DNA from: Escherichia coli
GTDB lineage: Bacteria; Pseudomonadota; Gammaproteobacteria; Enterobacterales; Enterobacteriaceae
Assembly (NCBI RefSeq): GCF_036507355.1
Contig: NZ_AP027877.1
Direction: 5' to 3' (one strand)
DNA: 64,000 bases
This document shows positions 4,801 to 7,800 of the stretch, one piece after another. Each line of letters opens with the position of its first letter. Position 1 is the stretch's first letter. A program made the position numbers.

Positions 4801-7800
4801 TGCCGTGGCTGTGCAACAAATCGCGCGCTTCGTCGCGTTCATGGGCGCGCTGTCGCAAGCGCCATAAGCGCCGCCACTCTGTTACCACAGAACCTACGCC
4901 AGCGCCGATAATCAATGCCCCAGCGGCACATCCACCCAGCGCCACCCAGTCCTGAGTTTGCCAGGCATTCATTGTCCATTGTACCCCCTGCCCGACAACG
5001 CTTGCGCCAAACAGAGCCAAGCCGCCCATCACCATTTTGCGCCACAGGCTGCGTTTCGGACGTAACGCTGCGTCCATTACCGCTTCGACTTGCCCCTCTT
5101 CTTCCTGCGCTTCGTCGAGCGTGGCCGGGGCAAAATTTTGCGCCTGATTTTCGTCAAAGGTCTGCTGCGCCCTGAATTTTGGATTCTGTTCGACCTCCAG
5201 CGGACCGTCGAAATCAATACGTGGTTTTAACGGTTCGGTCATCGCAATTTATCTCCTATTAAAAATTCCAGCGCGGCATCAAGACGAATATGCGGCAGCG
5301 GTTTGTCGACATCCATCACCTGCGGGCGAAATGCCTCAAACTGGAAGCCTTGCTTATCCCAGAACGCCTGACCAGGCAAACGTGCGGGAACTTCGCCAGG
5401 ATAAACAGTGAGCGGTGCGCCATCGCTAAGTCGATTACCGCGCAGCGCCGGGATTTTCTCACCGTTAACATCAATAATGCCACTGGTGGTCGCCTGAACT
5501 GACGCCAGCCCCAGGCAATCCATGCTGATCCCTTCGAACGCCGCATTTTGCCAGGCATCCTGAATTAGTTGTTGCAGCAATGAAACCATATTGGCGTGCT
5601 GATCGATGGTCACATGGTCCGCTTTAGTGGCAGCAAACAATAGCTTATCGATAACCGGCGAAAACAAACGCCTGAACAGGGTACGCTGCCCATAGTGGAA
5701 ACTTTGCATCAGCTGCGTCAGCGCCAGACGCATATCATTAAATGCCTGTGGCCCACTGTTGAGAGGTTGCAGGCAATCCACCAGCACAATCTGGCGGTCA
5801 AAGCGCAGAAAATGATTCTTATAGAACCCCTTCACCACTTTCTCGCAGTAATAATTAAACCGCTCGCGCTGCATTCCGGCATTGGTATGCTTATCGGCCT
5901 GCGCGAGTTTGGACTCGCCCCAGGCATCGACATCCGGCCACGGGAAGAATTGCAGCGCGGGCGCACCTGCCATATCTCCTGGCAAGACAAAGCGCCCTGG
6001 CTGAATAAAGTGCAGCCCCTGCTGTTTACAGTAGTGGAGATAATCAGTCCAGGCGGCGGCAATGTCCGCCAGCCGGTTTTCGTCGGCAGGCGCTAGCGGG
6101 TCAAGTCCTTCGCACATCATTCGCCATTTCGCCGACCATTCCCCGCGCTGACCATTGAGTAAGCCCGTCATCTGGCGCGACCAGCTTAAATAGTCCTGCG
6201 CCAGCATCGGCAGGTCGAGCAACCATTCGCCGGGATAATCTACAATTTCCAGATACAGCGTGGAGGTATCCTTAAAGTGGCGCAGCAGCGAATCGTTCGA
6301 TTTATAGCGTAGCGCCAGGCGAATTTCGCTGACGCCGCGCGTTGGCGTCGGCCAGGCGGGAGGATCGCCATACAGCTGCGCCAACCCTTCGTCGTAGGTA
6401 AAACGCGGAATGCCAAAATCGCGCTGAGGAATGCGTTTTACGCCCAGCAGGCGCTCTTCACGCACCGCACTTAACAGCGGCAAGCGTGCTCCGGCATGAA
6501 TATTAAGCAACTGATTAACCATCGCGGTGATAAATGCTGTTTTGCCGCTGCGGCTAAGTCCGGTTACAGCGAGGCGCAGATGTCTGTCGACACCCCGATT
6601 CACCAGCGCATTGAGTTCATTTTTAAGTCGCTTCATTGCTGTCCTGTGCTGCTCTGAAGACCAGAAAAAAAATCATTCGTAAGGATATGAATGTGGGGGC
6701 CAGGCCATTGATTATCAACTGCCCGTGTTGTCATCGACGGGCGAACTCCATAAGATGTGCAGCATTCACGTTCGGACGGAGTTCCTGACCTATGTCCCCT
6801 ACTATTTATGATATTGCCAGGGTTGCAGGCGTATCAAAATCCACCGTATCACGCGTGCTGAATAAGCAAACTAATATCTCCCCGGAAGCGCGCGAAAAAG
6901 TGTTACGGGCCATTGAAGAATTACAGTATCAACCAAACAAGCTGGCCCGCGCGCTGACCTCTTCGGGTTTTGATGCCATTATGGTGATTTCTACCCGTTC
7001 GACCAAAACTACGGCGGGTAATCCGTTTTTCTCAGAAGTTCTACATGCCATCACCGCCAAAGCGGAAGAAGAAGGTTTCGACGTGATATTACAAACGTCG
7101 CACAACCTGGCAGAAGACTTACAAAAATGTGAAAGCAAAATTAAGCAGAAAATGATTAAAGGCATTATTATGCTAAGTTCGCCAGCGGATGAGTCATTTT
7201 TTGCCCAACTTGATAAATACGATATTCCTGTCGTGGTGATTGGCAAAGTTGAAGGTCAATATGCCCATGTTTATTCTGTCGATACCGATAATTTTGGTGA
7301 CAGCATTGCGCTAACCGATGCATTAATTGAGAATGGACATAAAAACATTGCCTGCCTTCATGCACCGCTTGATGTCCATGTTTCAGTGGATCGGGTAAAT
7401 GGTTATAAGCAAAGTCTGTCCGCGCATAATATTGCAGTGCGTGATGAATGGATTGTTGACGGCGGTTATACCCATGAAACAGCACTGCAAGCCGCGAGAG
7501 AATTATTAAGCCAGTCACCGTTGCCTGAGGCGGTGTTTGCCACTGACAGCCTGAAATTAATGAGCATTTATCGTGCGGCAGCAGAGAAAAATATTGCTAT
7601 TCCGCAGCAGTTAGCGGTGGTGGGTTATAGCAATGAAACGCTGTCATTTATTTTAACGCCTGCACCAGGCGGCATCGATGTTCCGACGCAGGAGTTAGGG
7701 CAACAAAGCTGCGAGTTATTATTCCGCTTAATTTCCGGAAAACCGTCGCCACAAAATATTACCGTTGCCACGCATATGACGCTGAAATAAATACCAGCTA

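What the first reader, a model, noticed from the sequence alone, without database searches (positions are those of the whole stretch)
6690..6718. Heat-shock-type promoter in front of ycjX-ycjF
The minus strand upstream of ycjX reads TTGATAA, a 13-nt spacer, then CCCCACAT, a close match to the sigma32 consensus. This fits the reported membership of ycjX and ycjF in the sigma32 regulon. It is an expected feature, not a novel one.
Basis: partly seen in the sequence, partly recalled or inferred. Interest (0 to 1): 0.15.

Follow-up and report, generated by a model that had tools for sequence, protein, structure and literature searches.

The report
Known heat-shock promoter of ycjX-ycjF
The motif is real and is almost certainly the already catalogued heat-shock (sigma-32) promoter in front of the E. 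coli ycjX-ycjF genes, so this is an ordinary, expected feature.

Summary
The minus strand reads TTGATAA (6718-6712), 13 nt, CCCCACAT (6698-6691). The octamer ends 54 nt before the ycjX ATG (6636), in the 155-bp gap between divergent ycjW and ycjX.

The motif alone is no better than chance: 1 hit against 1.83 expected in the window, and 17 sites score as well. The context is what counts.
- It is the only such site that is intergenic and close to a same-strand start codon.
- The -35 to -10 stretch is identical to E. coli K-12.
- In K-12, sigma-32 ChIP-chip after heat shock gives log2 2.9 at ycjX, equal to dnaK.
- ycjX and ycjF are early heat-induced genes.
- Salmonella has a 47-bp RpoH ChIP-exo footprint at its ycjX.
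- In 19 distinct upstream sequences from Enterobacteriaceae, conservation peaks exactly on TTGA and CC.CAT.T.

Caveats:
- The -10 is degenerate (C where T-10 is expected, spacing one longer than a reference promoter), and its register is ambiguous by 2 nt.
- Two published K-12 TSS maps list no start here. They list only an upstream sigma-70-type start (window 6800) inside ycjW.
- The paper that mapped this promoter (Nonaka 2006) could not be read.

Verdict: interpretation supported, already known, low interest.

The parts
6712..6718 (-). -35 element TTGATAA (hexamer TTGATA is 5/6 to TTGAAA; it is preceded by G6719 where the consensus has C)
   Evidence: Sequence. The TT and G columns are kept in 19/19, 18/19 and 15/19 distinct orthologue rows. 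It was invariant in the six E. coli sequences aligned.
6699..6711 (-). Spacer of 13 nt after the 7-mer, which is 14 nt between the hexamer TTGATA and CCCC. This is one more than in the reference sigma-32 promoter used for cryo-EM.
   Evidence: Reference promoter sequence and numbering from PMC10216364. Gap computed. Spacer columns are poorly conserved, 6-13 of 19 rows.
6691..6698 (-). -10 element CCCCACAT, 6/7 to CCCCATnT, with C6693 where T-10 is expected. An alternative register, CCACATTC (6696-6689), is 2 nt downstream.
   Evidence: The family consensus at these columns is CC.CAT.T, with 19, 19, 18, 16 and 17 of 19 rows. The register ambiguity is shown.
6680..6686 (-). Predicted sigma-32 transcription start (centre about 6683), giving a leader of about 47 nt
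   Evidence: Inference from the -8 to +1 distance in the reference promoter scaffold. No start is listed here in the K-12 TSS tables of PMC3415461 and PMC3923258.
6642..6645 (-). Shine-Dalgarno AGGA, 5 nt before the ycjX ATG
   Evidence: The GGA columns are invariant in alignment A1.
5239..6636 (-). ycjX coding sequence (465 aa, DUF463 / YcjX family)
4181..5242 (-). ycjF coding sequence (353 aa, DUF697); its start overlaps the ycjX stop by 4 nt
2492..4033 (-). tyrR. RegulonDB places it in one transcription unit with ycjX-ycjF, but it also has its own mapped starts.
6800..6837 (-). Second, upstream ycjX promoter of sigma-70 type: TTGATA (6837-6832), 18 nt, TATCAT (6813-6808), start at 6800. It lies inside the first codons of ycjW and gives a 164-nt leader.
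   Evidence: Promoter scan. K-12 TSS 1381977 is printed with its upstream 50 nt, which matches the window.
6728..6764 (+). Divergent ycjW promoter: TTGTCA (6728-6733), 17 nt, TAAGAT (6751-6756), start at 6764. Its -35 lies 9 bp from the sigma-32 -35.
   Evidence: K-12 TSS 1382013, with 410 and 1019 reads.
6792..7790 (+). ycjW (LacI-family repressor), the divergent neighbour
   Evidence: Its known operators are at ycjM and at ycjT/ycjU, not in this intergenic region (PMC6599011).

Best explanation
This is the sigma-32 (RpoH) promoter of the ycjX-ycjF(-tyrR) transcription unit. When heat or protein misfolding raises sigma-32, the holoenzyme is expected to bind TTGATA with sigma region 4. It reads the CC 'extended -10' plus the core -10 with regions 3 and 2, melts around A-11 (A6694 in the preferred register), and starts near 6683. 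That would give a ycjX-ycjF mRNA with a leader of about 47 nt. Shown here: the elements, their position, and their conservation. Taken from the literature on an identical K-12 core sequence: sigma-32 occupancy of the locus after heat shock, and heat induction of ycjX and ycjF. Inferred: that this motif, and not another nearby sequence, is the site bound, plus the exact start and the -10 register. A separate sigma-70-type promoter 117 nt further upstream (start at 6800) probably supplies transcription at ordinary temperature.
For: The motif and its coordinates are. It is the only site of at least 10/14 within 6500-7100 on either strand. It is the only site of at least 11/14 in the window that is intergenic and near a same-strand start. 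The core is identical to K-12. Sigma-32 ChIP-chip gives log2 2.9 at ycjX after heat shock, the top value shared with dnaK, and region SigH_134 covers the locus. RegulonDB and Nonaka 2006 assign ycjX a sigma-32 promoter. ycjX and ycjF respond early to a temperature upshift. In Salmonella a 47-bp RpoH ChIP-exo peak is assigned to ycjX/ycjF, which rise by log2 1.41 and 1.28 on heat shock. Among orthologues, 13 of 82 upstream regions score at least 11/14, against 1.5% of random 130-nt segments. In the Enterobacteriaceae whose upstream region carries the motif, the -10 sits 43-54 nt from the ATG, and several are perfect CCCCATGT, CCCCATTT or CCCCATCT. Column conservation peaks only on TTGA and CC.CAT.T. 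The 60-bp core occurs in 5,040 of 5,426 complete E. coli genomes, and the variants sampled all fall outside the -35 to -10 stretch.
Against: By sequence alone the match is at chance level. The -10 has C at the conserved T-10 position, the spacing is one longer than the reference, and homology alignments favour other registers. Two genome-wide K-12 TSS tables, one of which includes a heat-shock condition, list no start at about 6683. They list only 6800 and 6835. That data set is shallow, however: the start it lists 44 nt before htpG has only 29 reads. ChIP-chip resolution is hundreds of bp and cannot separate this site from the promoter at 6800. Nonaka 2006 was not readable, and other TSS supplements held nothing for this locus.
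Confidence: 0.85

Rival explanations
1. The heat induction and the sigma-32 ChIP signal come from the upstream promoter whose start is mapped at 6800 (TTGATA-18-TATCAT), and the TTGATAA...CCCCACAT motif is inactive.
For: This is the main ycjX start in the K-12 TSS tables. It has 7 reads in exponential phase and 211 reads summed over the exponential, stationary and heat conditions in which it was detected. Cho 2014 labels it 'DH'. ChIP-chip cannot resolve 117 bp.
Against: Its -10 region (AATATCAT) has no CCCC/CAT features, and the best sigma-32 score there is 9/14. It lies inside ycjW, so it cannot exist in genomes where pspD or pspE precedes ycjX, yet those genomes keep the proximal motif. In Salmonella the RpoH and RpoD footprints are separate, about 55 bp apart. 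The extra reads may come from stationary phase.
Confidence: 0.08
2. The motif is a chance match with no promoter activity.
For: The hit count is at chance level. Sixteen other sites in the window score as well. No start is listed here in the two TSS tables.
Against: The position, the conservation footprint, the in vivo sigma-32 occupancy of the locus, and the retention of both blocks in two E. coli alleles whose leaders are otherwise only about 60% alike.
Confidence: 0.03
3. The same elements are used by both sigma-32 and sigma-70. TTGATA with a 17-nt spacer reaches CACATT, so the promoter would be dual rather than purely heat-shock specific.
For: TTGATA is 5/6 to the sigma-70 -35 consensus. 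CACATT (6695-6690) is 3/6 to TATAAT at a 17-nt spacing (read). A sigma-70 ChIP region also covers the locus (SigD_555). From my own knowledge of Wade et al. 2006, not read here, overlap between sigma-32 and sigma-70 promoters is reported to be common.
Against: The sigma-70 scan did not call it. The sigma-70 ChIP region is already explained by the mapped ycjW promoter and the 6800 promoter. No basal start is listed here.
Confidence: 0.15

Closest known systems
ycjX promoter (sigma-32) of E. coli K-12 as recorded in RegulonDB/EcoCyc after Nonaka et al. 2006
   Same: Same gene, same position, and an identical sequence from -35 through -10. The 110 nt upstream of the ATG differ at one base, 6739, which lies outside the motif.
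   Different: Nothing functional that I could detect. I could not read the original mapping, so the recorded start site and boxes were not compared.
Canonical sigma-32 promoters: the 'dnaKp1' scaffold CTTGAAG-N13-CCCCATTT used for the cryo-EM structure, and hslV (clpQ) with CCCCATCT
   Same: Two-block architecture with a TTGA-type -35, a CC 'extended -10', and A at -11.
   Different: TTGAtA instead of TTGAAA. There is no C before TTG. C replaces T at -10, and the spacing is one longer. Several orthologues, for example Pluralibacter CTTGCAA-N13-CCCCATGT, are much closer to consensus than E. coli.
pspABCD-ycjXF arrangement of Yersinia, Serratia, Rahnella, Pantoea and others
   Same: The same ycjX-ycjF pair lies downstream of the psp genes (PMC3041696).
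   Different: In those genera pspD ends about 8 nt before the ycjX ATG and no sigma-32-like motif is present. In the window ycjX is 14.6 kb from psp and has its own promoters.

Membership tests
Sigma-32 (RpoH)-dependent promoter | -35 element resembling CTTGAA(A) | tested here: met
   GTTGATA scores 5/7 against the 7-mer and 5/6 against the hexamer. Consensus as stated in PMC10216364.
Sigma-32 (RpoH)-dependent promoter | -10 element CCCCATnT, including the CC extended -10 and A-11 | tested here: met
   CCCCACAT matches 6 of 7 specified positions, with CC and A-11 present and C at the T-10 position. The register is ambiguous by 2 nt.
Sigma-32 (RpoH)-dependent promoter | Spacing between the two elements as in known sigma-32 promoters | tested here: met
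   14 nt between the hexamer and CCCC, against 13 in the reference scaffold. That +1 is tolerated is my recollection of Nonaka 2006, not checked here.
Sigma-32 (RpoH)-dependent promoter | Correct placement and orientation upstream of a gene | tested here: met
   Intergenic, with 54 nt from the -10 to the ycjX ATG. It is the only site of at least 11/14 in the window placed this way.
Sigma-32 (RpoH)-dependent promoter | Conservation of both elements in orthologous upstream regions | tested here: met
   The elements also survive in the second E. coli allele and in E. albertii.
Sigma-32 (RpoH)-dependent promoter | Sigma-32 holoenzyme occupancy in vivo | not testable with these tools
   Literature for K-12, which has an identical core: log2 2.9 at ycjX and region SigH_134. 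In Salmonella there is a 47-bp RpoH ChIP-exo peak.
Sigma-32 (RpoH)-dependent promoter | rpoH- or heat-dependent transcript starting about 7 nt after the -10 | not testable with these tools
   Heat induction of the mRNA is reported. No start is listed at the predicted place in the two TSS tables I could read. Nonaka 2006 is not held.
ycjX-ycjF gene pair | A DUF463 P-loop protein followed by a DUF697 membrane protein, with overlapping stop and start | tested here: met
   Pfam E-values of 8.9e-181 and 1.2e-55.

The most novel reading that the evidence does not exclude
ycjXF may have been rewired during enterobacterial evolution. In Yersinia, Serratia, Rahnella and others it is the translationally coupled tail of the sigma-54/PspF-controlled psp operon. 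In part of the Enterobacteriaceae it became a separate unit with its own sigma-32 promoter. E. coli itself carries two very different leader alleles. One is ycjW-linked (5,040 genomes) and one is pspE-linked (373 genomes). Both keep TTGATAA and CCCACATT but with spacers that differ by 3 bp, which may be offset by a 2-nt shift of the -10 register.
Probability: 0.4. Interest if true: 0.3.

Novelty: already known. Interest (0 to 1): 0.08.

Why it matters
It matters little. It confirms that a catalogued E. coli heat-shock promoter is present and intact in this genome. Its modest value is as a worked example: a sigma-32 site that cannot be told from chance by sequence becomes convincing through position, conservation and published occupancy data. 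The only points of wider interest are side observations. The published TSS maps credit ycjX to a different, upstream promoter. And the ycjXF pair seems to have moved from phage-shock to heat-shock control within the enterobacteria.

Tried and rejected
- Nonaka 2006 (PMC1522074) and Thomason 2015 are not held.
- A full-text search for the promoter sequence or for 'ycjXp' found nothing.
- The Cappable-seq supplements had no rows for this locus and are probably truncated. Conway 2014 has no supplement held. The Mendoza-Vargas 2009 supplements had no entry. The genomic SELEX paper on minor sigma factors does not mention ycjX.
- I considered control by YcjW and rejected it. Its ChIP-seq peaks and operators are at ycjM and at ycjT/ycjU.
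- I considered an RNA element in the leader (thermometer, attenuator or known family). Rfam gave no hit and the fold z-score was 0.31.
- The weak CATTC/GAATG hairpin plus U8 was not called as a terminator.
- As an internal positive control I scored lapA, another reported sigma-32 target in the window. It reaches only 9/14, so consensus counting is a poor discriminator.
- The L003-type junction gave no megablast match in E. coli. The E. coli allele B was then found by another route.

Full report
**Observation.** Reading the minus strand gives TTGATAA at 6718-6712, a 13-nt spacer, and CCCCACAT at 6698-6691. The ycjX ATG is at 6636, so 54 nt separate the end of the octamer from the start codon.

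The neighbours are:
- ycjX, 5239-6636 minus
- ycjF, 4181-5242 minus, overlapping ycjX by 4 nt
- tyrR, 2492-4033 minus
- the divergent ycjW, 6792-7790 plus
- ompG, 7901-8806 minus

These names rest on RefSeq annotation of E. coli records matching at up to 98.8% identity, and of K-12, and on Pfam DUF463, DUF697 and LacI domains. The window is E. coli-like. It is 97.6% identical to K-12 and 98.4% to an O157:H7 strain over 8-10 kb. A 301-bp stretch around the promoter is 100% identical to that O157:H7 strain.

**Is it more than chance?** Not by sequence alone. TTGAAA-N14-CCCCATNT with up to two mismatches hits once in the window, here, against 1.83 hits expected from shuffles. I also made a simple count against CTTGAAA and CCCCATNT with gaps of 11-15. 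It gives this site 11 of 14, and 16 other distinct sites in the 64 kb do as well or better.

Context separates it from those sites. It is the only one that lies outside an open reading frame and within 100 nt of a same-strand start codon. Within 6500-7100 nothing else on either strand reaches 10 of 14. lapA, another reported sigma-32 target in the same window, scores only 9 of 14. So consensus counting is a weak discriminator in both directions.

**Published evidence for this locus.** The 110 nt upstream of ycjX differ from K-12 MG1655 at one base (6739), outside the motif.
- Huvet et al. state that RegulonDB records a verified ycjX-ycjF-tyrR unit, with ycjX associated with a sigma-32 promoter, citing Nonaka 2006 (PMC3041696).
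- Waldminghaus and Skarstad re-did sigma-32 ChIP-chip 5 min after heat shock. They found a mean log2 IP/IN of 2.9 at ycjX, the highest value in their table, shared with dnaK (PMC2996942).
- Cho et al. list a sigma-32 binding region, SigH_134, spanning the locus (PMC3923258).
- In a chemostat temperature upshift, ycjX and ycjF were early-responsive genes alongside the classical chaperones (PMC7572479).
- In Salmonella Typhimurium a 47-bp RpoH ChIP-exo peak is assigned to the ycjX and ycjF homologues. These rise by log2 1.41 and 1.28 on heat shock, and a separate RpoD peak lies about 55 bp away (PMC11548764).

**Comparative evidence generated here.** A scan of species-representative genomes with YcjX returned 80 loci. 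Using the same consensus count, the best site in the 130 nt upstream of ycjX scores at least 11 of 14 in 13 of 82 sequences. Only 1.5% of random 130-nt segments from the same loci do so.

In the Enterobacteriaceae whose upstream region carries the motif, the -10 octamer always ends 43-54 nt from the ATG. Several are textbook sigma-32 promoters, for example:
- Pluralibacter: CTTGCAA-N13-CCCCATGT
- Enterobacter BIGb0383: CTTGACA-N14-CCCCATGT
- Citrobacter FP75: GTTGATA-N13-CCCCATCT

An alignment of 20 such upstream regions gives the consensus TTGATAA...CCCCCATnT. Per-column counts over the 19 distinct rows peak on TTGA (19, 18, 15, 13) and on CC.CAT.T (19, 19, 18, 16, 17). Spacer and flanking columns sit at 6-13 of 19.

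The motif is present whatever gene lies upstream, whether pspD, pspE or ycjW. Across complete E. coli genomes the 60-bp core is found in 5,040 of 5,426, and 3,253 match at 99% identity or more. In variants sampled from the top to the bottom of the ranking, every difference falls outside the -35 to -10 stretch.

**Weak points.** The E. coli -10 is a degraded copy of the family consensus. That has C where T-10 is expected, and the -35 sits one base further away than in the reference scaffold of PMC10216364. Homology alignments instead place the family's A-11 under C6693 or A6692. The second of these gives CCACATTC with a spacer three longer than the reference.

More important, the two K-12 TSS tables I could read list no start near the predicted position. 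That position is about 1382094 in the coordinates those tables use for K-12, or window about 6683. For ycjX they list only 1381977 (window 6800) and 1381942 (window 6835). The first matches a sigma-70-type promoter, TTGATA-18-TATCAT, found independently by the promoter scan. It lies inside the first codons of ycjW.

That start has 7 reads in exponential phase. It has 211 reads in the table of Cho et al., where it is flagged for exponential, stationary and heat conditions. It therefore could carry some of the induction. Against this, its -10 has no sigma-32 features, it cannot exist in genomes that lack ycjW, and the data set is shallow: the start it lists 44 nt before htpG has only 29 reads. 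The paper that mapped sigma-32 promoters by 5' RACE was not available.

**Mechanism.** The best-supported reading is a conventional sigma-32 promoter. Sigma region 4 would bind TTGATA. The CC pair would be read as an extended -10, and the core -10 would be melted around A-11, as described structurally in PMC10216364. Initiation near 6683 would give a 47-nt leader with an AGGA Shine-Dalgarno 5 nt before the ATG.

The upstream sigma-70-type promoter probably provides expression at ordinary temperature. The ycjW promoter (TTGTCA-17-TAAGAT, start at 6764) is back to back with the sigma-32 promoter, with the two -35 elements 9 bp apart. That the two polymerases interfere with each other is only an inference. 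No RNA element was detected in the leader, and the known YcjW operators are elsewhere.

Two side observations are mildly new to me. First, in Yersinia, Serratia, Rahnella, Pantoea stewartii and Tatumella, pspD ends about 8 nt before the ycjX ATG and no sigma-32 motif exists. This suggests that ycjXF moved from psp-operon control to heat-shock control within the Enterobacteriaceae.

Second, E. coli has two alleles of the leader. Allele A is the one in the window. It is linked to the 14.6-kb ycjM-to-ycjW island. Allele B occurs in 373 genomes, where pspE is followed directly by ycjX, as in E. albertii. The two leaders are only about 60% alike. Both keep TTGATAA and CCCACATT, with spacers differing by 3 bp.

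Noticed in passing
window 6800-6837 (minus): A sigma-70-type promoter, TTGATA-18-TATCAT, has a K-12-mapped start equivalent to window 6800, inside the first codons of ycjW. It gives ycjX a 164-nt leader that is antisense to the 5' end of the ycjW mRNA (ycjW start at 6764). It is the only major ycjX start in two published TSS tables.
   Followed up: partly
window about 6650-21270; L087 2396-2513; L002: The 14.6-kb ycjM-to-ompG-ycjW island is absent from 373 of 5,426 complete E. coli genomes and from E. albertii, where pspE is followed directly by ycjX. The two leader alleles share TTGATAA and CCCACATT but differ by 3 bp in the spacer and are otherwise only about 60% alike. Homology resumes 13 nt before the ATG (window 6649).
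   Followed up: partly
loci L024, L029, L030, L033, L035, L038, L043, L051, L057, L063: In Serratia, Yersinia, Rahnella, Pantoea stewartii and Tatumella, pspD ends about 8-14 nt before the ycjX ATG. This suggests translational coupling to the psp operon. No sigma-32-like motif is present.
   Followed up: partly
window 6646-6672 (minus): A conserved leader block, a T-rich run followed by CTTCAG(G)GC..AA..GGA, lies between the predicted start and the Shine-Dalgarno in all 20 aligned Enterobacteriaceae sequences. There was no structure signal and no Rfam match.
   Followed up: partly
window 58144-58291 (minus), upstream of lapA (58143-57835): lapA/lapB (yciS/yciM), another reported sigma-32 target, lies in the window. 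Its best consensus match is only 9 of 14.
   Followed up: partly
window 23253-23268 (minus): TGGCACGCAAATTGTA, one mismatch from the sigma-54 pattern I searched (TGGCAC-N5-TTGCA), lies upstream of pspA (ATG at 23201). The divergent pspF is at 23353-24345. This is the expected psp promoter.
   Followed up: no
L088 (E. coli AZ 187) and L084 (O145:H28 RM12581): One E. coli genome has ycjW followed directly by pgrR, so ycjX, ycjF, tyrR and their neighbours are deleted. Another has ycjX annotated as a frameshifted pseudogene.
   Followed up: no
window 39378-46188 (minus): There is a run of four co-oriented ORFs of 387, 457, 1035 and 384 aa. From their sizes alone I guessed an efflux-pump cluster. 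I did not check their identity or whether K-12 carries them.
   Followed up: no
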